Below are positions 2,586-24,878 of a stretch of 28,179 bases of DNA, piece by piece (position 1 is the first letter of the stretch; each line of letters begins with the position of its first letter). Source of the DNA: a virus; UHGV virus genome UHGV-0383551. One strand, written 5' to 3'. Under the pieces are notes generated by a model that worked only from the letters and a program-made list of their open reading frames with translations, made no database searches and had not been told where the DNA came from. The position numbers were made by a program, and so were the translations under genes.

Positions 2586-2677
2586 TTTACATCGCACTCC
2601 TCTTGTGCCATAGTAATCGGGCACTGGCAAAATCCAGTGCCGGGATTGGCGTCCCGAGTTACTACAGAGGCACATAT

Positions 2678-2697
2678 GCCGCATAAGCGGTTTTTTT
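2678..2697 (+). terminator. Weak intrinsic terminator or attenuator: short GC stem (CCGC-ATAA-GCGG) followed by seven T
   Basis: Hairpin plus T-tract seen in the sequence. The stem is only 4-5 bp, so termination efficiency is uncertain. Confidence 0.35.
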
Positions 2698-2850
2698 ATG
2701 TGTAAAGCGCACCTATTCTATGGTGGGCTGTGTGGGGGCACCGAAAGGTGCGCCGGGTCCTTTGTAGCCGGTTACGCCAACCCTGCACAGTTCACCACCA
2801 ACCGATTGGCGTCGGTAGTGGTGATTAACCTAACTACAAAGGTGATCGCT

Positions 2851-3537
2851 ATGACTGCTAACGTAACCCCATCTGTTTTTCATTTTGAATCAGAAGCAAC
2901 CATTCGAGCCATTGTTATTGATGGAAATCCTTGGTTTGTTGCCAAAGACGTTATTAAAGCTCTTCAACTGACAAACCCCACTATGTCAATAAAATCTCTT
3001 GATGATGATGAAAGGGCTAAATTTAACTTAGGCCGTCAAGGCGAAACCAATATTATCAACGAGTCAGGCCTCTACACACTGTTCCTCCGCTGCCGCGATG
3101 CGGTGACACCAGGCACTACCCCCTACCGCTTTCGTAAATGGGTTACAGGTGAGGTTCTTCCTCAGATCCGCCGCACCGGAAGCTACATTAAAAACTCGCT
3201 CCCGCAGGAAGAACGCATAAAGATGGTTGCCGACCAGGTAGCCAACGCCACGGCGTCAGCAGTAATGCAGGCGATGAAGATAGAGAACAAAACCTACAGC
3301 GCCCCGCTGAAGCCCGGCTACCGCAGTTTGATTCACTCGCCGTCTGGTGTTCTCGGCCTGACGGAGAACTCACTGCTGATGAATCTGCTGAACCAGTTAC
3401 AGGAAGACGGGCACGACGTATCGGGCGCGGCGGCGGAACTGACCACCATGTTCTGCTACATCGTCGGTGTGAGTAAATGCCTGCGTGATATCCAGACCCA
3501 CGCGGAATACATCAACGACAAGGCAGGGGTCTTCTGA
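2851..3537 (+). CDS. Phage antirepressor with N-terminal Bro-N domain (228 aa from ATG 2851; the track ORF begins further upstream at 2698)
   Basis: The internal ATG at 2851 has AAGGTG 8 nt upstream. The N-terminus SVFHFESEATIRAIVIDGNPWFVAKDVIKALQL...GLYTLFLRCRDAVTPGTTPYRFRKWVTGEVLPQIRRTGSY matches my memory of the Bro-N/AntA domain pattern. The C-terminal domain is paralogous to the 2281-2538 product. Confidence 0.75.
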   Translation: MTANVTPSVFHFESEATIRAIVIDGNPWFVAKDVIKALQLTNPTMSIKSLDDDERAKFNLGRQGETNIINESGLYTLFLRCRDAVTPGTTPYRFRKWVTGEVLPQIRRTGSYIKNSLPQEERIKMVADQVANATASAVMQAMKIENKTYSAPLKPGYRSLIHSPSGVLGLTENSLLMNLLNQLQEDGHDVSGAAAELTTMFCYIVGVSKCLRDIQTHAEYINDKAGVF

Positions 3538-3602
3538 CAGAACGGCGGCACAGGGATGTGCCTTTAAATAATTCTGTACAGATTGCAGGTGAATAGCGTA
3601 CT

Positions 3603-3618
3603 ATTACCCCAAAGGTAA
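3603..3618. promoter_or_regulatory. Inverted-repeat motif ATTACC-CCAAA-GGTAA (copy 3 of 4), about 120 bp upstream of the two-gene cassette
   Basis: Read directly from the sequence. Confidence 0.55.
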
Positions 3619-3735
3619 GAAAGTTGATTTGTAACATTTTAGTTTGTAGTTACCGTGATGGTTTTGCTGCAGAAAGTTAACTAGTCAAAATCACACCGTA
3701 TGTAAGTCACGTCTGTTCCCGTATGGGAGGATGAT

Positions 3736-3954
3736 ATGTTTAAATTTGATATGCAACTCAACCAAAACTATGCCTCTTTTTACCATCCAGAAACTGGTAA
3801 AGCTGTTTTCGTTGACTCTTTCGATAATGAAGAATTTGATATCAGAATTGGGACCCTACGCCAAAGTAAGCATGTTGCTACTGTACGTGCATCCAATGAT
3901 GATGAATTAAATCAAAAAATAAGTGAGGCGACCTCCCGTTATCTATGTCTATAA
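3736..3954 (+). CDS. Hypothetical protein, 72 aa; first gene of an AT-rich two-gene accessory cassette
   Basis: ORF with a strong Shine-Dalgarno (GGGAGG 7 nt upstream). Overlaps the next gene by 10 nt. I recognise no domain. Confidence 0.55.
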   Translation: MFKFDMQLNQNYASFYHPETGKAVFVDSFDNEEFDIRIGTLRQSKHVATVRASNDDELNQKISEATSRYLCL

Positions 3955-4322
3955 CAGAACAACAACTCATTGATCTTGAGGATGAGATTAACGAGATCTT
4001 GCAAGAAGATGCGGCAAGAATTCACTTTTCATTTCACGCAGCATATGAACGCCTGAACGACGAGAGGAACAAACCGCCAATTACTCTTGCTGAGCTTGAA
4101 GATGTGTTTAAATCGTTTATATCTGCACATCTGCAGACTGTTTTGGATTTTGCTGAAGGTACAACTTTCACCATAAAGTGCAACAAAAGCGCCCTTCATT
4201 TTCCTTGCGCCATTGTACACGAAAGAGAGTTTGGGAAAACGTGGGTTATCCAAAACGTCATTACAGCCATGAGGAAAGTGGGATTCAAGTCTAAAGATTC
4301 TATTATCCTCGAAGTTAATTAA
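3945..4322 (+). CDS. Hypothetical protein, 125 aa, with an acidic N-terminal segment; second gene of the cassette
   Basis: The ATG at 3945 overlaps the stop of the upstream gene, suggesting translational coupling. An intrinsic terminator follows directly. I recognise no domain. Confidence 0.55.
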   Translation: MSITEQQLIDLEDEINEILQEDAARIHFSFHAAYERLNDERNKPPITLAELEDVFKSFISAHLQTVLDFAEGTTFTIKCNKSALHFPCAIVHEREFGKTWVIQNVITAMRKVGFKSKDSIILEVN

Positions 4323-4343
4323 GCCCGCACTGAGGGCTTTTTT
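4322..4343 (+). terminator. Intrinsic terminator (AGCCC-GCACTGA-GGGCT followed by TTTTT)
   Basis: Hairpin plus T-tract immediately after the stop codon at 4320-4322. Confidence 0.65.
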
Positions 4344-4415
4344 ATGGACGAAACAAAAGTCAGTGCTACACTCATTGACGCCACATTGAGGTGGCTTATA
4401 GATGGAAATTTCACA

Positions 4416-4577
4416 ATGAAAAAAGCATTTGCTGCACTGTTCGTTTTGTTGTCTCTGGTAGCTTCAACTCAGGCCTTTGCCGGTCGTTGTCAGCACGACA
4501 GCGACACTGCTGCTGACGGCTCCCGCTGCGGTGGGCGTTCTGCGGATTCCCGCCCGGGTGGCGGTGGCATTCGTTAA
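4416..4577 (+). CDS. Possible small secreted peptide (53 aa precursor) with a signal-peptide-like N-terminus MKKAFAALFVLLSLVASTQAFA and a Gly/Arg/Cys-containing mature part
   Basis: Internal ATG of track ORF 4344-4577. Very typical signal peptide with an AxA cleavage motif, but the RBS is weak and the ORF overlaps other open frames in a GC-rich stretch. Confidence 0.3.
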   Translation: MKKAFAALFVLLSLVASTQAFAGRCQHDSDTAADGSRCGGRSADSRPGGGGIR

Positions 4578-4599
4578 AAACAAGGCCGCGAAAGCGGCC
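4573..4599 (-). terminator. Intrinsic terminator ending the minus-strand virion operon (GGCCGC-GAAA-GCGGCC, T-tract on the minus strand)
   Basis: Perfect 6-bp GC stem with a GAAA loop. The plus-strand A-run at 4576-4580 gives the U-tract for the minus-strand transcript. Sits just downstream of the lipoprotein stop at 4609. Confidence 0.7.
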
Positions 4600-4600
4600 T

Positions 4601-4612
4601 GTGACATGTCAC
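4601..4612. repeat. 12-bp perfect palindrome GTGACATGTCAC (copy 1 of 3)
   Basis: Read directly. Its TCA triplet supplies the TGA stop of the minus-strand lipoprotein gene. Confidence 0.6.
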
Positions 4613-4989
4613 GCAACGCAATTATTACCGCGCCATGTAACATTTTTAATAATCTTATCAGCACCAAACTCAACGTAAACAGAGCAACTGAAATGGAGTG
4701 TATAACCGCCATCAGTTGTTGCGTATGTGTTTGAATATATAGTATTACCAATTAGATTAGACGTAGTATTATACGTTGTGGTTTGTGGTACGTTATAACT
4801 ACCAGAGCTTGAGTAAACATACACTCTGTTTCCATCTGGAGATGTAAGCTCTCCCTGAGGATACCCCCACTGCTGAACCATTGCGTCTATACTCTGCCCG
4901 CGCCACGTAAGCATATTTCTTTCAAACTGTGCAGCTGACTGGCATCCAACGAGAAGCATAAATCCAAAAATCAAAAATACTTTTCTCAT
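4609..4989 (-). CDS. Predicted lipoprotein (126 aa from ATG 4989), signal peptide MRKVFLIFGFMLLVGC with lipobox LVGC
   Basis: The internal ATG has AGGGG about 6 nt upstream; the track ORF starts at GTG 5025. Classic lipoprotein signal and lipobox cysteine. Last gene of the minus-strand late operon. Confidence 0.6.
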   Translation of the reverse strand: MRKVFLIFGFMLLVGCQSAAQFERNMLTWRGQSIDAMVQQWGYPQGELTSPDGNRVYVYSSSGSYNVPQTTTYNTTSNLIGNTIYSNTYATTDGGYTLHFSCSVYVEFGADKIIKNVTWRGNNCVA

Positions 4990-5074
4990 AATTACCCCTA
5001 TCATGGAAAAACAGCACCAATCCACAAATTAACTAGTTATTTTATTATTCTTCCGAACAATACAATTCCGAATA

Positions 5075-5197
5075 CTACAAAGCCGAACCATGCCGCTGCA
5101 CGCAACAGAGATTCCAATTGAAACCCATTTTTATCAAAATGTATGAATAGCATAAAAACGCTGCACATATTAGTACAATAAAAGTTATTTGAACCAT
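5075..5197 (-). CDS. Small hydrophobic membrane peptide, about 40 aa (MVQITFIVLICAAFLCYSYILIKMGFNWNLCCVQRHGSAL); frame assignment ambiguous
   Basis: Not in the ORF track because it is under 60 aa. AAGGAG sits immediately after the stop of the 824-aa gene and 5 nt before the ATG at 5197. The alternative track ORF 5037-5225 in another frame also encodes a hydrophobic segment but has no RBS. Confidence 0.35.
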   Translation of the reverse strand: MVQITFIVLICAAFLCYSYILIKMGFNWNLCCVQRHGSAL

Positions 5198-18302: not shown

Positions 18303-19004
18303 TTATTTGCCATAGAGCACTTCGGCCGCACTACGCTGGCCTTCATTACCACCGGTGACCATGCCATCTTCAGACATCGCCTTTCCGATTTTCACGAACG
18401 TTTTGACCAGATCAGGGTGATTACCCAGCCCGGTGGTGTTCAGATATTCTTTGAGTTCAGGTGTCCCGAACTGGTCAAGCGCACGCTGTGCGGCGCTAAG
18501 GTTAGAAATCAACTTGTCGCCACCGATTTCTTTGTCGGCTTTTACATCCGCAGCCCACTGCTCGGTTGTTTTCTGCCAGGCTTCTGCCTGGCGCTGCTGA
18601 ACACCTGCCAGAATCTTCGGATAAGCATCAACCAGCTTTTGCGCTTGCTCGTTGGTCAGGTTTAGTTCTCGCGCCACCGGCTCGAATTCCTTCAACGCTT
18701 CTGTATCCAGCTCTACGCCTTCGGCAGCCTGAAACTCGTACTTTTCAGGCGCACCCTCTGGTTTATCGCCGTCCTTTTTTTCATCCTGCTTATCGTTTTC
18801 AGGCTTTTTGTCATCAGCAGGTTTATCGCCATCAGCAACAGGTTGTGGCTTATCACCTTCCTGTTGTGATGGATCACCAACTGGAGCAGGGTTATCACCT
18901 GCAGGCGCTGACGGTTCTGACGCAGCCGGAGCTGCTCCACCATCGACTGGTTGCTCATTGCAAAGACGGCGATACAGCAAACGCTCAAATAAATTCATGA
19001 TCAC
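18303..19004 (-). CDS. Scaffolding protein (233 aa)
   Basis: Acidic, low-complexity Pro/Asp/Lys/Glu-rich central region with predicted helical ends, located between the portal and capsid genes. Confidence 0.5.
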   Translation of the reverse strand: MIMNLFERLLYRRLCNEQPVDGGAAPAASEPSAPAGDNPAPVGDPSQQEGDKPQPVADGDKPADDKKPENDKQDEKKDGDKPEGAPEKYEFQAAEGVELDTEALKEFEPVARELNLTNEQAQKLVDAYPKILAGVQQRQAEAWQKTTEQWAADVKADKEIGGDKLISNLSAAQRALDQFGTPELKEYLNTTGLGNHPDLVKTFVKIGKAMSEDGMVTGGNEGQRSAAEVLYGK

Positions 19005-19297
19005 TCCTGTTCACTGGCCTCTTTGGCCATCTTCAAATACTGTTCAGGGCAATGCGCCATAACGCGCTGAAACAGTTCCAGCGCCAGATTGCGTTGCCCC
19101 TCATTAAATGCCATTGCCATAGCATCCATCGGAGAGATAGCGGAAAACACCCGGCCTTTCTCCAGCACCGACCAGACAACGCGACGCCCCTGTTCACTGC
19201 TCATGACAAAGCAAATGTCATCAATTTCACGCTGTGCCATGTCACGTTGCTTACGGGCGTTTTCTTCTTTCAGTTGATCGTCTTCGTAATCTGTCAT
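19001..19297 (-). CDS. Hypothetical small protein (98 aa) between portal and scaffold
   Basis: ORF with 4-nt overlaps to both neighbours, suggesting translational coupling. Confidence 0.45.
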   Translation of the reverse strand: MTDYEDDQLKEENARKQRDMAQREIDDICFVMSSEQGRRVVWSVLEKGRVFSAISPMDAMAMAFNEGQRNLALELFQRVMAHCPEQYLKMAKEASEQE

Positions 19298-20973
19298 TGT
19301 GATTGCCCACCCTGACCACTAACTGCATTCGCCATAGCTGACAAAACACTCGGATCCGAAGTTTTAGCTTCGCTTAGCGTCTTGGCACCCTGTGCCGCCG
19401 CCATCCCCATCGCCATCATTTGTTGCTGCTGTTGTTGCTGTGCCCGTTGCTGGCGAGCCTGCTCAACCTGTTCCTGCGGAACAATGACGGTTGGAGACAC
19501 TCCGGACATATCAGCGAATGCATCGATCGCCTGATCAACGTTGAGTTTGTCGAGAGCTTCTGGTTTCGCTTGCGCAAGTTGACCAATGAAGTTGACCGTA
19601 GACGCCAGACTGGACAGGCCGATAGACTTCTGCGCCTGAGCCATGACGGAAATGTATTCGACCTTCAGGGGCATACCTTCCATTGCGTCAGGCGGTGGCG
19701 GCAGCATGTTTTTACGCACCATCATCGAGAAAGCGCGGTCAATGAGAGGATTAAGACATTCGTCGTTCAGACGCTCCAGAACCGGCCCCAACATCAGAAG
19801 TTTTTCTTCTTTCATTTCGATCACCGCTTCAACAGGCATCGAGCGGGTATTGATGTTCTGCAACATCATGAACAGATCGACAAAGTAGGCGCTGTTAATG
19901 ATTTGACGGGTGTCCTGAATGTCTGCCACCAAATCTGCTGTACTGGGGTTAACCAGATAAGCAGGCCTGAAGCCATCCTGACCAGTAATCTGATCGATAT
20001 ACGTGATGTCGCCAGGAAGAAGGGAGGCGCGCTGATTCTTGAGGGAAGTCGGAGCAACCATCGGCGGATTGGTGGCTTTATCAATCAACTGCGACTTGCG
20101 CTTCTGGAGAAGCTGCAATGCCTTAACAGGTCCAAGCGCCAGCATACCCGGGCATGATGATCCATAAACATCTTCGCCATTAACTTCCCAGCGCGGAGCC
20201 ATAATTGGAAACTCATCAAATCCGGACTCACGCAACAACTTGTCGTTATCGCCACCAACCTCGTAATAAACCGATTTGAATGGCTTGTTCTTGCTATCCA
20301 GCTTCGATGTATCGCGGTCAATGTTCGGGTAAACCGAATGCATCACGTCAATCCACTTCTCGTAGGTGCCGCTTTCCCACATGCTTTTTACGGATTCGCT
20401 GACGTTATTTAGCCCGAACTCCTGAACAAGCTGACGAACAGTCATAGAGAACTTGCGAAAACAGGTGTCCACACTGCCACGAGGTGAGTTAGCCAGGTAG
20501 TAACTGCCTATCGGGAATGGCATTGTGCGAATGATGTCCTCGTCATCCTCCAGCACCGCCATTGCACCAGTGCTGTATGTGCCGAGGCTTCCGTATAACT
20601 GCGGAAGAGACTGGTAGAGATTCGACTTATTGAACATATCGTTCATGCGGTTCTGCACCGCCTCGAGCCACAACTTAACAGGACCATAATCCATCATTTC
20701 AGGATCTGGCGTAGCCAGGCGAAACCACGGACGCGCAGGGCTTGTGATGCCTGACATCATGCCGCTGGCGAGAGTGCGCGCCGCCATAGTCCCGGTCGAA
20801 TCAATAATGCGTGTATTGCGTCGATCGTTACGGTTGACCTCAGAAGTCAGAAAGCGGGAACCACGCGGGTTGATGTAATCACTCAACTCGCGCCAGTGCG
20901 GCTCGAACGACTGACGCTCGCTTTCAAGTTGTGCGAACTGTTTGTTCAATCGCTCTTTAGTTGTTTCCGCCAT
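19294..20973 (-). CDS. Portal (head-to-tail connector) protein, 559 aa
   Basis: Size and position; Gln-rich C-terminal tail (QQRAQQQQQQQMMAMGMAAAQ) as in podovirus portals; GGAG about 9 nt upstream of the ATG. Confidence 0.7.
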   Translation of the reverse strand: MAETTKERLNKQFAQLESERQSFEPHWRELSDYINPRGSRFLTSEVNRNDRRNTRIIDSTGTMAARTLASGMMSGITSPARPWFRLATPDPEMMDYGPVKLWLEAVQNRMNDMFNKSNLYQSLPQLYGSLGTYSTGAMAVLEDDEDIIRTMPFPIGSYYLANSPRGSVDTCFRKFSMTVRQLVQEFGLNNVSESVKSMWESGTYEKWIDVMHSVYPNIDRDTSKLDSKNKPFKSVYYEVGGDNDKLLRESGFDEFPIMAPRWEVNGEDVYGSSCPGMLALGPVKALQLLQKRKSQLIDKATNPPMVAPTSLKNQRASLLPGDITYIDQITGQDGFRPAYLVNPSTADLVADIQDTRQIINSAYFVDLFMMLQNINTRSMPVEAVIEMKEEKLLMLGPVLERLNDECLNPLIDRAFSMMVRKNMLPPPPDAMEGMPLKVEYISVMAQAQKSIGLSSLASTVNFIGQLAQAKPEALDKLNVDQAIDAFADMSGVSPTVIVPQEQVEQARQQRAQQQQQQQMMAMGMAAAQGAKTLSEAKTSDPSVLSAMANAVSGQGGQSQ

Positions 20974-21621: not shown

Positions 21622-21698
21622 GTGGCATTAGCTCAGTTGGACAGAGCAACCGCCTTCTAAGCGGTTGGTCGCAGGTTCGAATCCTGCATGCCACGCCA
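21622..21698 (+). tRNA. tRNA-Arg, anticodon UCU (reads AGA), 77 nt including CCA
   Basis: Folded by hand: 7-bp acceptor stem GTGGCAT/ATGCCAC, D-arm GCTC...GAGC, anticodon stem ACCGC/GCGGT with loop CTTCTAA, T-arm GCAGG-TTCGAATC-CTGC, discriminator G, encoded CCA. The acceptor stem differs from my recollection of host argU, suggesting a phage-borne copy. Confidence 0.85.
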
Positions 21699-21896: not shown

Positions 21897-22253
21897 ATGA
21901 ACGACCAGCAAATCGAAAAAGAAATCGTTGAGAAAGGCAAAACCGCTCCGCGAGTTACGCCTCAATATATCGAAAGCATCATTCTTGAAGAGCATTTCTT
22001 TACTGCTTATGACGGCATTCGTGCTGCCAATATGGGCGTTGGCGATACGTGGACAGCGCATAAATCTACAGACCTCCTTACTTTCTGCGTACTGGTGCTG
22101 AAGAATGGCTTCACCGTCACCGGAGAGAGTGCCTGTGCAAGCCCGGAAAACTTTGATGCAGAAATTGGTCGGAAAATTGCCCGGCAGAATGCTGTAAACA
22201 AAATCTGGATGCTTGAAGGTTACTTGCTGAAGCAGAAGTTAAGCGAGCAATAA
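21897..22253 (+). CDS. Conserved-looking phage hypothetical protein (118 aa), a moron inserted between the terminase and portal genes
   Basis: ORF on the opposite strand to the flanking late genes, with AAGGTGAG 6 nt upstream and its own downstream terminator. I could not place the family with confidence. Confidence 0.55.
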   Translation: MNDQQIEKEIVEKGKTAPRVTPQYIESIILEEHFFTAYDGIRAANMGVGDTWTAHKSTDLLTFCVLVLKNGFTVTGESACASPENFDAEIGRKIARQNAVNKIWMLEGYLLKQKLSEQ

Positions 22254-22257
22254 CACC

Positions 22258-22269
22258 GTGACATGTCAC
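22258..22269. repeat. 12-bp perfect palindrome GTGACATGTCAC (copy 2 of 3)
   Basis: Read directly; lies between the stop of the 21897 ORF and its terminator. Confidence 0.6.
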
Positions 22270-22273
22270 AAAC

Positions 22274-22300
22274 AGCCAGCTCATAGGCTGGCTTTGTTTT
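22274..22300 (+). terminator. Intrinsic terminator (AGCCAGC-TCATAG-GCTGGCT followed by TTGTTTT)
   Basis: 7-bp stem and T-rich tail seen in the sequence. Confidence 0.55.
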
Positions 22301-22343: not shown

Positions 22344-23819
22344 TTAAGCATACGGGTCATAATCTGTGATGGCCTTGCCTTGCTGGTTCTGCTGCCCAGG
22401 AATTCGCAGACGCTTCGACACAGGGAAAGCAAACGTCAGCAATAGCGCATCGCCTTTACCAGGAGAACGCCCAAGCCGCTCCTTGATATCTTCCTTCGGT
22501 TCGATAACGATTTTACCGTCCACGCGAACTTTGTACTCTGCCGCCGACAGGTCGTCCGCTGTTTCCTGGTCATCCAGCATGCCGCCCAGCCTCAGCCATG
22601 TCTTGCATGAGTTGAACATCTCCCCACGCTTGTTAAGCATCTGCGGGTCAGTAGACGCGCCACCGAACGGAACAAGTTGCCATGTACGCCCCCAACCATC
22701 ACCGATTGACTTCAAACCGGTTCCGTAACCGAAGTCGATGAACACCGCGTCAGCCTGGTACTGGTCTTCAAAGTCAGCGATACGCTTCGCCATAATCAGA
22801 TCGTCAGTGGTCTTGTTGCCGGTCCACAGCACCTTACTGTGCAGCCCCTGCCGCAGATATATCACCGCGTCATCAACACCGGAGTATGCCGGGTCAACGC
22901 CGATTATCACCGGAGCATGTGCAACCTGCGCAGCGGTGACCACCCGTTTCATTGCCTCGTCAGTAAGTCCGGTAGGGATAAACTGCAATTCAGATGCATC
23001 CGGGAATATGCCGCGCACACGGATTTTAACGAAGTCGCTATCTTCCCCGTAGTCATCAACCCATTTCTGCAACTGCTGTTTGTTAGTGCCTTCCACCGTC
23101 CGGCTGTCAATCTGCGCAGTTTTCCAGCGGTGTTTGTATTTGCGGAAACATTCGCGAAAACGCCCGGTATTACGTGTAGGGTTTCCGAACGCCACCCAGA
23201 TAATCTCAGTGTCTTCGTCCGTAAGCGCACCCTCAGCAACTTCCCACACCAGATCCGCAATGTTCGACGCTTCATCGAATACCACGATGATGCGTTTGCG
23301 CTCGTTGTGTAGTCCGGCGAATGCCTCAGTGTTGTGCTCAGACCAGGGGATTGCGTCAGCTCGCCACCGCTTGTCGTGCCCAGGATCATTGCTGTACATC
23401 GCAGTAGCGGTACAGGTAAACCAGTCTTTCGTGATAGCAAGGTTCGACCACTTGATAATTTCCGGCCAGGTCTTCGTTCGTAGCTGGTTGTCGGTGTTGG
23501 CGGTCACCACGACCTTACAATCCTCGCAAGTGGACATGCCCCAGTTGATCAGCATTGAGATGAATGCGGATTTACCAATACCGTGACCCGAAGCACGTGC
23601 CAGCATAAGCGGCTGATAGCGCGTCTCTGGATTCTGCAGGTGATCACGTATCTCTCGGAACGCATCAGCCTGCCACTGACGTGGGCCGGTAGCATGTGCC
23701 AGTTCAGTCCCCTCTTCCCCCCACGGGAACGCATAGAGGGCATAGCCAAGCGGATCGTGAGTGAACCCTGCAATATCCTCGATCAACTGCTCTTCAGGAG
23801 ATAACGCTGTATCTGTCAC
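22344..23819 (-). CDS. Terminase large subunit (491 aa)
   Basis: Walker A-like ARASGHGIGKS, Walker B-like IIVVFDEAS, and a C-terminal nuclease-like region (IIGVDPAYSG...). Overlaps the upstream small-subunit gene by 4 nt. Confidence 0.85.
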   Translation of the reverse strand: MTDTALSPEEQLIEDIAGFTHDPLGYALYAFPWGEEGTELAHATGPRQWQADAFREIRDHLQNPETRYQPLMLARASGHGIGKSAFISMLINWGMSTCEDCKVVVTANTDNQLRTKTWPEIIKWSNLAITKDWFTCTATAMYSNDPGHDKRWRADAIPWSEHNTEAFAGLHNERKRIIVVFDEASNIADLVWEVAEGALTDEDTEIIWVAFGNPTRNTGRFRECFRKYKHRWKTAQIDSRTVEGTNKQQLQKWVDDYGEDSDFVKIRVRGIFPDASELQFIPTGLTDEAMKRVVTAAQVAHAPVIIGVDPAYSGVDDAVIYLRQGLHSKVLWTGNKTTDDLIMAKRIADFEDQYQADAVFIDFGYGTGLKSIGDGWGRTWQLVPFGGASTDPQMLNKRGEMFNSCKTWLRLGGMLDDQETADDLSAAEYKVRVDGKIVIEPKEDIKERLGRSPGKGDALLLTFAFPVSKRLRIPGQQNQQGKAITDYDPYA

Positions 23820-24412
23820 TGATTACCATCCTGACGTTCTTTGAGTCGCTTCCTGGCTGCTGCTATGCGATCAGCAATTGTCACATTCACATTAACATCC
23901 AGACGTTCTTTGAACGCGTTGACATCAACATGCTTACCAATCAGCTCAAGGTTCTTCACCTTGTCAGGCCATTTAATTTTTTTGAGGATTGTCTCTATCG
24001 AATCCTCGTTCATGTTCATGATGGTCGATGACAGATCAAAGCCACTAAGCGTAGTGCGCCAGATTTTCGGCCACTCACGGATTGGTTTAAGGCTCCCATC
24101 GTCGTTGAGGATGTCGATCACGTCCATCTGGTCGATCTGCACCAGGCGCATGAGAACGTAATCAGCACTGACGCGCATTCGTTTGTTGCGCTCCTCCATC
24201 AACTCGGCAATCCGTTTTTGAATGCGTTCATCGCGCATCATGACACTGGCTTTAACTGCCGCTGTATTTGGGGAGAATCCTGCGTTAATCGCTGCCTGAG
24301 TCTGGTTTTCAGGCGTTTTGATGTATGACTGGCAATAAGCCTCCTGCATTGCTGTTAGTGGCTTAAATTGCGTTGATTTGCGTTTATAGGTTTTAGGTTC
24401 AGCAGGCATCAT
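23816..24412 (-). CDS. Terminase small subunit (about 198 aa from the ATG-ATG at 24412; the track ORF extends to 24490)
   Basis: Segment KPLTAMQEAYCQSYIKTPENQTQAAINAGFSPNTAAVKASVMMRDERIQKRIAELMEE resembles phage small terminase subunits, and the gene sits directly upstream of the large subunit. The internal start has a GGTGG RBS; the longer start would run through the intergenic repeats. Confidence 0.7.
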   Translation of the reverse strand: MMPAEPKTYKRKSTQFKPLTAMQEAYCQSYIKTPENQTQAAINAGFSPNTAAVKASVMMRDERIQKRIAELMEERNKRMRVSADYVLMRLVQIDQMDVIDILNDDGSLKPIREWPKIWRTTLSGFDLSSTIMNMNEDSIETILKKIKWPDKVKNLELIGKHVDVNAFKERLDVNVNVTIADRIAAARKRLKERQDGNQ

Positions 24413-24420
24413 AACCACCG

Positions 24421-24452
24421 TGGTAATAGTTACCGTTTTGGTAATAGTACCA
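24421..24452. repeat. Tandem copies of TGGTAATAGT (24421-24430 and 24439-24448), each within a GGTAA...TACC inverted repeat, immediately upstream of the small terminase start
   Basis: Read directly. A 10-mer repeated within 30 bp is not statistically striking alone; noted because of its position and because it shares GGTAA/TTACC half-sites with the ATTACC-N5-GGTAA motif. Confidence 0.35.
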
Positions 24453-24454
24453 TG

Positions 24455-24481
24455 CAAAATAAAGCCGCCATAGTTGGCGGC
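24455..24481 (-). terminator. Intrinsic terminator separating the early block from the terminase genes (GCCGCCA-ACTA-TGGCGGC followed by TTTATTTTG on the minus strand)
   Basis: 7-bp GC-rich stem and U-rich tract in minus-strand orientation. Confidence 0.6.
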
Positions 24482-24522
24482 AGTATTCAAAACCCATCAA
24501 ATTCATCATGCATAATCTACTC

Positions 24523-24534
24523 GTGACATGTCAC
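24523..24534. repeat. 12-bp perfect palindrome GTGACATGTCAC (copy 3 of 3)
   Basis: Read directly. Its TCA triplet supplies the TGA stop of the minus-strand ORF 24531-24878. Confidence 0.6.
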
Positions 24535-24878
24535 ACTATTAATTTCGTTTCATGCCAGCCTTTAGTCACCCAGCATTGCGAGTCACCATTACACGGGCAT
24601 GAATTAACGGGAACTCTCTCGCCGCACTTACCGCAACGTTTTCTGCTGATCGATTTTATACGCCCGCGCACACGTGCATCATCCTGGCGGATCAGCAGCG
24701 CGATGTACTCGGACATTTCATAGGGATCGCGACCAGGGCGCCGGGCGGCGCAGTTCCGCGCCAGCATTTCCTGCTCCTGCTTATCCAGCACCAGTTCAAT
24801 TTTGCGCTCACCGGCGGCGGACTGCCGAGCGCGCTGCGCGGCTTTGCGTTCTGCGGGGGATTTAGCCACGAATCGCAC
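24531..24878 (-). CDS. Hypothetical early protein (115 aa) with a basic N-terminus and a C-terminal Cys cluster (CGKCG...CPCNGDSQC), possibly a zinc ribbon
   Basis: ORF with a visible Cys motif; no confident family assignment. Confidence 0.45.
   Translation of the reverse strand: MRFVAKSPAERKAAQRARQSAAGERKIELVLDKQEQEMLARNCAARRPGRDPYEMSEYIALLIRQDDARVRGRIKSISRKRCGKCGERVPVNSCPCNGDSQCWVTKGWHETKLIV

What the first reader, a model, noticed from the sequence alone, without database searches (positions are those of the whole stretch)
4601..4612. 12-bp perfect palindrome GTGACATGTCAC present three times, each at a module junction
Identical copies lie at 4601-4612, 22258-22269 and 24523-24534. A given 12-mer occurring three times in 28 kb by chance is unlikely (rough expectation about 0.01), and all three are at operon ends. 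One abuts the terminator closing the virion operon, one sits between the moron ORF stop and its terminator, and one sits between the last early gene and the terminase leader. In two copies the internal TCA provides the TGA stop codon of the upstream minus-strand gene. A perfect palindrome with a CATG core suggests a dimeric protein-binding site; a boundary sequence used in modular recombination is the alternative.
Basis: seen in the sequence. Interest (0 to 1): 0.55.

Follow-up and report, generated by a model that had tools for sequence, protein, structure and literature searches.

The report
Phage regulator's matS-like binding site
The thrice-repeated palindrome is real, and it is most likely the DNA site bound by a small, uncharacterised phage protein encoded beside one copy; the same gene-and-site pair recurs in several unrelated phage groups, and the site looks like the bacterial chromosome signal matS with one base pair removed.

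Summary
In detail: GTGACATGTCAC occurs exactly three times (4601, 22258, 24523), against 0.0016 copies expected. The window is a phiV10/epsilon15-like (Uetakevirus) temperate phage. The same 12-mer sits at the same three places in phiV10, Tyrion, SPN1S and epsilon15, although the flanks have diverged.

The conserved unit is 14 bp, YGTGAC-NN-GTCACR. The outer half-sites are invariant and the centre varies, so the "CATG core" is not the conserved part. Only the 2-bp spacer is enriched in 3.3 Mb of related loci.

The motif starts one base before the TGA stop of a 112-aa gene (24531-24869, minus strand; epsilon15 gp49 / N15 gp46 family, phrog_536, no Pfam). This holds in Uetake-like, N15-like and Yersinia P2-like phages and in Pantoea phage AH07. 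Every locus encoding a family member carries at least one site. The protein models as a ribbon-helix-helix DNA binder with a C-terminal Cys4 module.

Best reading: a cognate operator that punctuates three transcription-unit ends, each next to an intrinsic terminator. Binding and its effect are inferred, not shown.

The site equals E. coli matS (GTGACRNYGTCAC) minus one central base, but homology of the protein to MatP was not supported. No paper or annotation consulted mentions the motif.

The parts
24522..24535 (.). Site A: cGTGACATGTCACa. It contains the TGA stop (24531-24533, minus strand) of the gp49-family gene.
   Evidence: The motif starts 1 nt before the family gene's stop in 79/85 Uetake-like, 50/50 N15-like and 48/55 Yersinia P2-like loci.
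22257..22270 (.). Site B: cGTGACATGTCACa. It lies 4 nt after the stop of the plus-strand moron ORF and 4 nt before that ORF's terminator.
   Evidence: Conserved in phiV10, Tyrion, SPN1S and epsilon15. Absent in about 17 of 80 relatives in which a different cargo gene replaces the cassette.
4600..4613 (.). Site C: tGTGACATGTCACg. It contains the TGA stop of ORF 4609-5025 and abuts the terminator that closes the virion operon.
   Evidence: Conserved in all four reference genomes. It is part of a 60-bp conserved island at 4555-4614.
24531..24869 (-). Candidate cognate protein, 112 aa (epsilon15 gp49 / phiV10 gp55 / N15 gp46 family; phrog_536). It has an N-terminal Arg-rich helix, a ribbon-helix-helix domain and a C-terminal CxxC...C...C module.
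24464..24481 (-). Intrinsic terminator after site A (GCCGCCAACTATGGCGGC followed by TTTATTTT).
   Evidence: The equivalent feature is annotated as a terminator in epsilon15 at 39646-39671.
22274..22293 (+). Intrinsic terminator after site B (AGCCAGCTCATAGGCTGGCT followed by TTGTTTT).
   Evidence: Annotated as a terminator in phiV10 at 2238-2257.
4583..4600 (-). Intrinsic terminator after site C (AGGCCGCTTTCGCGGCCT followed by TGTTTTT).
   Evidence: Annotated as a terminator in phiV10 (19505-19522) and epsilon15 (19531-19556).
21897..22253 (+). Moron ORF (N4 gp49 / Sf6 gp66 family) that ends just before site B.
   Evidence: PF13876, E = 1.6e-34.
4609..5025 (-). Accessory ORF (phrog_3716) inserted upstream of site C, relative to phiV10. 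Its stop codon lies in the site.
23816..24490 (-). Small terminase gene, the first gene of the unit downstream of site A. The start codon is uncertain.
   Evidence: PF03592.
24430..24445 (.). Prophage-repressor operator-like TTACCGTTTTGGTAAT, between the site-A terminator and terS. It is context for the finding and not part of the palindrome system.
   Evidence: It matches the epsilon15 'repressor' protein_bind sites ATTACC-N5-GGTAAT.
19234..19245 (.). One-mismatch copy GTGCCATGTCAC inside ORF 19001-19297. Probably not functional.
   Evidence: Kept in phiV10 but not in Tyrion, SPN1S or epsilon15.

Best explanation
Each copy is most likely a duplex-DNA operator of consensus YGTGAC-NN-GTCACR for the phage's own small ribbon-helix-helix (RHH) plus Cys4 protein. 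That protein is encoded at 24531-24869 (minus strand), and its stop codon lies inside copy A. I infer that the protein is made from the early-right operon. I infer that it binds the 2-fold-symmetric site as a dimer, or as two dimers on two inverted 7-bp halves as the RHH proteins omega and MetJ do (own knowledge). The invariant Arg-rich N-terminal helix probably reads the invariant half-sites, because the beta-strand residues vary between subfamilies. In this phage the three sites punctuate one strand: early-right operon | A | terS-terL | B | portal to virion genes | C. Each site lies beside an intrinsic terminator. The most likely effect of the bound protein is therefore to set how much transcription crosses these three unit boundaries. 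My leading guess is that it reinforces the boundary by acting as a roadblock or insulator together with the terminator. Shown: the sites, their conservation, the gene-site linkage across phage groups, the RHH fold of the model, and the adjacent terminators. Inferred: binding, stoichiometry, timing of expression, and the direction of the effect.
Confidence: 0.55

Rival explanations
1. The sites are bound by a host protein rather than the phage protein. The obvious candidate is MatP, whose matS site is GTGACRNYGTCAC. The phage would then carry matS-like sequences to recruit, or interfere with, the host machinery that organises the chromosome terminus.
For: The phage 12-mer equals the E. coli consensus matS GTGACATTGTCAC minus one central T (PMC8669397; PMC3603311; PMC3116907). 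MatP recognises matS partly through an RHH domain (PMC12756933). All named hosts of the family are Enterobacterales or Vibrionaceae, plus one weak Aeromonas phage hit. By my own knowledge, these are the lineages that have MatP.
Against: The spacer is 2 bp in more than 300 instances and is never the 3 bp of matS. The only 3-bp case seen was in Vibrio phage K233. Losing one base pair rotates the half-sites by about 36 degrees. The motif's tight linkage to the stop codon of one phage gene is not explained by a host factor. True matS motifs are absent from prophages and reported as avoided (PMC3603311). SlmA's site GTGAGTACTCAC differs at two symmetric inner positions.
Confidence: 0.1
2. The protein does bind the sites, but it promotes read-through. 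In this view it is a Q-like, site-loaded antiterminator that lets early-right transcription cross the terminator after site A into the terminase and virion genes.
For: The order gene, site, terminator, late genes mirrors lambda Q, qut/pR' and tR' (own knowledge of lambda; arrangement seen). The gene occupies the last position of the early-right operon. GTGACA within the site, with an 18-nt spacer and CATGAT, scores 9/12 as a promoter. Lambda Q also contains a zinc finger (own knowledge).
Against: There is no similarity to any Q family. N15-like phages and Pantoea phage AH07 encode their own Q-type antiterminator as well as a family member, and there the family gene is not next to the late promoter. 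Sites B and C have no promoter-like partner. At site B the late-direction polymerase meets the hairpin before it meets the site. The promoter-like match at site A is within chance expectation (3 found, 2.7 expected).
Confidence: 0.12
3. The element acts as RNA. GUGACNNGUCAC in the 3' UTR, or just before the next ribosome-binding site, forms a small hairpin or is bound by the Cys4 module. It would then control termination, mRNA stability or translation of the next gene.
For: All three copies are transcribed at the 3' ends of their units. In other phages the site lies 9-25 nt upstream of a start codon, a typical place for a translational operator. A 4-5 bp hairpin is predicted in two of the three contexts.
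Against: The hairpin is marginal, with a 4-bp stem. The stem never covaries and is invariant across distant subfamilies, which points to base-specific recognition rather than structure. The fold found is a duplex-DNA-binding one. There is no Rfam match at the sites. The terminator stems differ in sequence, so no shared alternative pairing exists.
Confidence: 0.1
4. The 12-mer is primarily a recombination boundary: a short shared sequence at which modules are swapped between mosaic relatives.
For: Homology with phiV10 and Tyrion around site C shrinks to a 60-bp (or 42-bp) island ending 2 nt past the palindrome. Three different modules begin 2-4 nt after site A in relatives. Site B comes and goes with its cassette.
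Against: Twelve base pairs are far too short for efficient homologous exchange. Selection for recombination does not explain invariant half-sites combined with a free centre, the Y/R flanks, the strict 2-bp spacer, or conservation in phage groups that share no neighbouring modules. Junctions that abut a site are expected for any essential cis element in a mosaic genome.
Confidence: 0.06

Closest known systems
MatP / matS (E. coli Ter macrodomain organiser)
   Same: The half-sites are identical (GTGAC / GTCAC) in a perfect inverted repeat. Multiple copies are dispersed over a DNA domain. Recognition involves an RHH domain preceded by an invariant Arg-rich segment: MatP has IRARRKR and the phage family has AERKxxQRxR.
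   Different: The spacer is 2 bp, not 3. The phage protein lacks MatP's N-terminal four-helix bundle and C-terminal coiled coil and has a Cys4 module instead. Profile-profile comparison gives the topologically expected alignment (gp49 residues 11-63 to MatP 76-126, 31% identity), but with probability 0.3 and E = 0.2, so homology is not supported. No PF06303 or PF17414 hit.
RHH regulators with short symmetric or heptad operators (omega of pSM19035, MetJ, Arc/Mnt of P22, CopG, ParG)
   Same: The predicted beta-alpha-alpha fold. A short operator that can be read as two inverted 7-bp units. The phage half-site GTCAC resembles omega's ATCAC heptad core (own knowledge). Several operators occur per genome.
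   Different: No sequence-family membership was found. There is an extra C-terminal Cys4 module. In most members the site overlaps the gene's own stop codon rather than its promoter. In this phage the sites lie at 3' ends, next to terminators.
Lambda Q with qut/pR' and tR'
   Same: The regulator is the last early gene, its presumed site lies immediately downstream, and a terminator and then the late genes follow.
   Different: There is no homology to Q. There is no demonstrated promoter or pause element. There are extra sites at unit ends. Phages with their own Q also carry the family.
Conserved 'boundary sequences' at module junctions of mosaic lambdoid phages (own knowledge of the HK97/HK022/HK620 literature)
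   Same: A short sequence conserved between otherwise unrelated flanking modules.
   Different: Here the sequence has the internal grammar of a protein-binding site and travels with one particular gene across unrelated phage types.

Membership tests
Ribbon-helix-helix (MetJ/Arc/CopG-like) DNA-binding proteins | beta-alpha-alpha fold | tested here: met
Ribbon-helix-helix (MetJ/Arc/CopG-like) DNA-binding proteins | Sequence membership in a curated RHH family | tested here: not met
   No Pfam or NCBIfam hit for the window protein. Only one of 42 family members gives a weak PF10723 RepB-RCR_reg hit, E = 0.034. No PDB sequence hit.
Ribbon-helix-helix (MetJ/Arc/CopG-like) DNA-binding proteins | Dimer that inserts a two-stranded sheet into the major groove of a symmetric or repeated operator | not testable with these tools
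   Only monomer prediction is available, and there are no binding data. The symmetric 14-bp site is compatible with this mode.
MatP / matS | 13-bp site GTGAC-RNY-GTCAC | tested here: not met
   The half-sites are identical, but the spacer is 2 bp in all 307 hits across the four locus sets and is never 3 bp. matS definition taken from PMC3603311 and PMC3116907.
MatP / matS | Protein homologous to MatP (PF06303 plus PF17414) | tested here: not met
   hhalign of the family profile A3 against the MatP family profile A4: probability 0.3, E = 0.2. BLASTP E = 13. No MatP Pfam hit. No family member appeared among 124 MatP representatives.
MatP / matS | Four-helix-bundle N-domain and coiled-coil C-domain | tested here: not met
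   The 112-aa model has neither. It has a single N-terminal helix and a C-terminal Cys4 segment.
SlmA-binding site (SBS) | 12-bp palindrome GTGAGTACTCAC | tested here: not met
   The length and the outer 4 bp are the same, but positions 5 and 8 differ symmetrically, as does the centre (GTAC versus CATG). SBS sequence from PMC3020112 and PMC3116907.
Q-type antiterminator with its DNA site | Homology to a Q family | tested here: not met
   No Phage_antiter_Q or other Q hit. N15-like loci carry PF06323 Q in addition to the family member.
Q-type antiterminator with its DNA site | Site embedded in a promoter followed by a terminator, upstream of the late genes | tested here: inconclusive
   The terminator and late genes follow site A. 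The only promoter-like match uses the palindrome itself as the -35 element, scores 9/12, and is within chance expectation.
Intrinsic terminator (is the palindrome part of one?) | GC-rich stem-loop followed by a T-run | tested here: not met
   The palindrome lies outside the three terminator stems, which have unrelated sequences. On its own it folds into a hairpin of at most 4-5 bp.
Mosaic-junction boundary sequence | Homology breakpoints between relatives coincide with the short conserved sequence | tested here: met
   The island at 4555-4614 ends 2 nt beyond site C. Alternative modules start 2-4 nt after site A.
Mosaic-junction boundary sequence | The sequence itself mediates the exchange | not testable with these tools
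   This needs recombination assays or a large breakpoint survey.

The most novel reading that the evidence does not exclude
The epsilon15 gp49 / N15 gp46 family is a phage-borne 'mini-MatP': an RHH protein that reads matS-type half-sites at a spacing 1 bp shorter. It would either bridge or organise the phage genome at its own sites, or cross-talk with the host MatP/matS-MukBEF-divisome system, for example by competing at matS or by insulating phage DNA from host condensin. This would explain why the family is seen only in phages of MatP-bearing bacteria and why true matS sites are avoided in prophages.
Probability: 0.1. Interest if true: 0.85.

Novelty: new variant of a known kind. Interest (0 to 1): 0.6.

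Why it matters
If confirmed, the finding assigns a DNA target, and therefore an assayable function, to a widespread phage protein family. The family has hundreds of 90%-identity clusters, no Pfam family and no characterised member, and occurs in Uetakevirus, N15-like, P2-like and Vibrio/Photobacterium temperate phages. It adds an unannotated cis element to the well-studied epsilon15 and phiV10 genomes. It gives a handle on how these podoviruses separate their early, terminase and virion transcription units, which is not understood. The near-identity of the site to matS also raises a directly testable question: do phages exploit or evade the host's terminus-organising system? In practical terms, YGTGAC-NN-GTCACR can be used as an annotation signature for these prophages.

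Tried and rejected
- **Known RNA family.** Rfam finds nothing at the three sites; its only hits are C4, isrK and a tRNA elsewhere. RNA folding gives only a 4-5 bp hairpin.
- **Part of the terminators.** Rejected. The stems are separate and unrelated in sequence.
- **Genome end or pac/cos site.** The phiV10 record begins inside copy A, but this is only the annotators' cut after the last gene's stop. The family also occurs in cos phages, far from the terminase genes.
- **Prophage-repressor operator.** Rejected. The annotated epsilon15 repressor sites are a different motif, ATTACC-N5-GGTAAT.
- **Homology of the protein to MatP.** BLASTP, profile against single sequence, and profile against profile were all non-significant.
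- **Family assignment.** Pfam, NCBIfam, PADLOC and PDB sequence searches gave no assignment. Foldseek against the PDB was not significant. The afdb50 library was unavailable.
- **Covariation between beta-strand residues and the centre dinucleotide.** Abandoned, because the centre varies even within one genome.
- **Literature.** No held paper contains the 12-mer, and nothing was found on gp49 function. The MatP-matS structure paper (PMC7505563) is not held.
- **Reverse test (site predicts gene) by scanning collections.** Not possible. The scan needs 14 fully specified bases, and chance hits would swamp a 14-mer.
- **Host background.** Whole E. coli chromosomes could not be scanned for the 12-mer with these tools. 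The background was instead estimated from spacer and orientation controls in 3.3 Mb of loci, plus lambda and P2.

Full report
**1. Observation**

GTGACATGTCAC occurs exactly at 4601-4612, 22258-22269 and 24523-24534. A one-mismatch copy lies at 19234-19245. Base composition predicts 0.0016 exact copies, and this is the only palindromic 12-mer found more than once in the window. The stated contexts are correct.
- Copy C (4601) abuts a minus-strand terminator, stem 4600..4583 followed by TGTTTTT.
- Copy B (22258) lies between the stop of a plus-strand ORF (21897-22253, Sf6 gp66 / N4 gp49 family) and a plus-strand terminator at 22274-22293.
- Copy A (24523) lies between the last early gene and terS, 42 nt before a minus-strand terminator at 24481..24464.
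- The TGA stops of minus-strand ORFs 24531-24878 and 4609-5025 lie inside copies A and C.

**2. What the window is**

The region 4000-28179 is 96-98% identical to phiV10-like Uetakeviruses and to many E. coli prophages. It is about 76-81% identical to Enterobacter phage Tyrion and to the Salmonella phages SPN1S and epsilon15. The late genes, from terS to the last virion gene, run on the minus strand from about 24490 down to 4609.

**3. Conservation**

The same 12-mer is present at the three equivalent positions in phiV10 (one copy with a single mismatch), Tyrion, SPN1S and epsilon15. Around site C, the only sequence this window shares with phiV10 between 3538 and 5196 is a 60-bp island at 4555-4614, made up of the terminator and the palindrome. 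With Tyrion the shared stretch is 42 bp. Among 80 related viral contigs, site A is exact in 78. Site B is exact in about 53, has one mismatch in five, and is absent in about 17, where a different, AT-rich cargo gene replaces the gp66-like cassette.

**4. The motif generalises and travels with one gene**

The ORF that ends in site A is the epsilon15 gp49 / phiV10 gp55 homologue, 112 aa from the ATG at 24869. It matches phrog_536 ('transcriptional regulator') and has no Pfam, NCBIfam or PADLOC hit.

Homologues with 32-63% identity occur in other phage types: Pantoea myovirus AH07, Yersinia P2-like phages, the linear-plasmid prophage N15 (gp46) and Vibrio phages. In AH07, the Yersinia phages and N15, the stop codon again lies in a GTGAC-NN-GTCAC palindrome with a different centre: CT, GC and TG respectively.

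A local tblastn over all fetched loci shows how often the motif starts exactly 1 nt before the family gene's stop:

| Phage group | Motif at -1 of the stop |
|---|---|
| Uetake-like | 79 of 85 (3 of the 6 misses are record ends) |
| N15-like | 50 of 50 |
| Yersinia P2-like | 48 of 55 (4 more at +9) |

Nine loci from further subfamilies (Serratia, Morganella, Photobacterium and others) all carry at least one site within 10 kb, although not always at the stop.

Only the 2-bp spacer is enriched. It gives 10, 134, 105 and 58 hits in the four locus sets, against 0-3 for spacers of 0, 1 and 3-7 bp and for the inverted arrangement. Lambda and P2, which lack the gene, have none.

Position -1 is C or T in all 159 unique contexts, so the element is the 14-mer YGTGAC-NN-GTCACR. 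The centre is free.

**5. The protein**

A 42-sequence alignment gave an AlphaFold2 model with mean pLDDT 88. The model has four parts:
- an N-terminal helix carrying the invariant E7, R8 and R13;
- an extended segment;
- two helices;
- a C-terminal CxxC...C...C segment with a final helix.

**6. Where the sites sit**

In this phage and its close relatives, the sites punctuate one strand: early-right operon | A | terS-terL | B | portal to virion genes | C. The epsilon15 annotation places repressor operators at the starts of these units and terminators at their ends.

All three sites have a terminator 0-42 nt away. The layout 'site, then 2-13 nt, then hairpin and T-run' recurs independently in a Photobacterium prophage (twice) and in contig L063. 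Overall, a terminator starts within 10 nt of 19% of unique sites, against 2.3% of random positions. That control is crude, because the random positions include coding DNA and the contexts are phylogenetically related.

Elsewhere the site lies 9-25 nt before the next start codon: N15 gp47, Vibrio and Photobacterium terS, and some Uetake relatives. Other loci show typical operator layouts: upstream of the gene's own ATG, pairs 33 bp apart, or a cluster at an ATTATAAT. N15 has three sites: at the gp46 stop, inside the 5' part of repA, and at the end of the repA operon.

**7. Mechanism**

The best-supported statement is that the palindrome is the cognate operator of this RHH/Cys4 protein. What the bound protein does is inferred. 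Given the placement, I favour control of transcription across unit boundaries, most likely reinforcement (a roadblock or insulator working with the terminator). Promotion of read-through, in the manner of Q, is the main alternative. The gene, site, terminator, late-genes order at A resembles lambda Q/qut/tR'. Against a Q-like role: there is no Q homology, no convincing promoter, and N15-like phages and AH07 have their own Q as well.

An RNA-level role is less likely. The half-sites never covary, and the fold found is a DNA-binding one.

The recombination-boundary idea is descriptively right, since junctions abut the site. It does not explain the motif's internal grammar or its linkage to one gene.

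**8. Comparison with known systems**

The site is E. coli matS with one central base pair removed. matS is GTGAC[AG]N[TC]GTCAC, with consensus GTGACATTGTCAC (PMC3603311, PMC3116907 and PMC8669397). MatP also uses an RHH domain on matS (PMC12756933) and has an invariant IRARRKR segment just before that domain.

I built a MatP family profile from 50%-identity representatives. Comparing it with the phage family profile gives the topologically sensible alignment (gp49 residues 11-63 to MatP 76-126, 31% identity). The probability is only 0.3 and E = 0.2, so homology is not supported. The phage protein lacks MatP's other two domains.

The SlmA site GTGAGTACTCAC shares only the outer 4 bp. True matS sites are reported as avoided in prophages; a 12-bp variant would have escaped that search. 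Whether MatP touches the phage site, or the phage protein touches matS, is open and easily tested.

**9. Novelty and verdict**

No held paper contains the 12-mer. None of the five annotated genome records examined marks it. The protein family has no characterised member. I class the finding as a new variant of a known kind: an RHH regulator with a palindromic operator. Its unusual features are:
- the site overlaps the regulator's own stop codon across several phage lineages;
- the sites lie at 3' ends, beside terminators;
- the sequence is a near-copy of matS.

Interest is 0.6. The probability that it is a real, selected protein-binding element is high. The probability that the named protein is the binder and acts on unit boundaries is about 0.55.

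Noticed in passing
window 2621-2802 (+), next to ORF 2698-3537: Rfam finds an isrK Hfq-binding RNA (2621-2697) and a C4 antisense RNA (2716-2802). They lie directly at the start of a Bro-N antirepressor ORF, which suggests a P1/P7 immI-type antisense control of the antirepressor.
   Followed up: no
window 21622-21695 (+): There is a tRNA gene in the cargo region between the portal gene and terL. It is on the same strand as the gp66-like moron that ends at site B.
   Followed up: no
window 24430-24445 (and a degenerate neighbour around 24414-24429): TTACCGTTTTGGTAAT matches the sites annotated as prophage-repressor operators in epsilon15 (ATTACC-N5-GGTAAT). It lies between the site-A terminator and terS, which suggests the lysogenic repressor controls the terminase unit directly.
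   Followed up: partly
window 19234-19245: A one-mismatch copy, GTGCCATGTCAC, lies inside ORF 19001-19297. It is retained in phiV10 but not in Tyrion, SPN1S or epsilon15, so it is probably not a functional fourth site.
   Followed up: yes
window 3538-5196: Relative to phiV10, both sides of the terminator/site-C island are replaced. On one side are plus-strand ORFs 3731-4577; on the other is minus-strand ORF 4609-5025 (phrog_3716) with a 62-aa ORF. Bases 1-2000 have low G+C, 0.37-0.41.
   Followed up: partly
loci L056, L061, L071, L073, L076, L083 (just after site A): Some relatives carry an inserted cassette immediately after site A: a sigma-70-like promoter with a near-consensus LexA box (TACTGTTTAAATATACAGTA) driving a umuD'-like gene (MGFPSPA.DY...). 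Another 27 relatives have a small ORF whose ribosome-binding site starts 1-2 nt after the site.
   Followed up: no
window 24482-24508 (-): An 8-codon ORF (ATGCATGATGAATTTGATGGGTTTTGA) lies between site A and its terminator. It is conserved among the E. coli relatives but absent from the Salmonella ones.
   Followed up: no
proteins P0450, P0457, P0464, P0467, P0473, P0476 (from the MatP representative search): These are short MatP-like proteins of 103-142 aa. They keep the IRARRKR / KKSIDL / LSE.I core of MatP, and most have a different N-terminus (MAR..Y.IT...). They may be MatP paralogues on mobile elements, but their genomic context was not examined.
   Followed up: no
L007 6763-6775 (Vibrio phage K233): GTGACACCGTCAC is the single 3-bp-spacer site seen anywhere. 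It fits the matS consensus and is followed by a hairpin. It sits in a phage that also carries three 2-bp-spacer sites.
   Followed up: no
L191 (distant family member), downstream of the gene: The family gene is followed by ATTACCGCGCCGGTAAT and further ATTACC repeats. These are the epsilon15-type repressor operator motif rather than the GTGAC palindrome.
   Followed up: no
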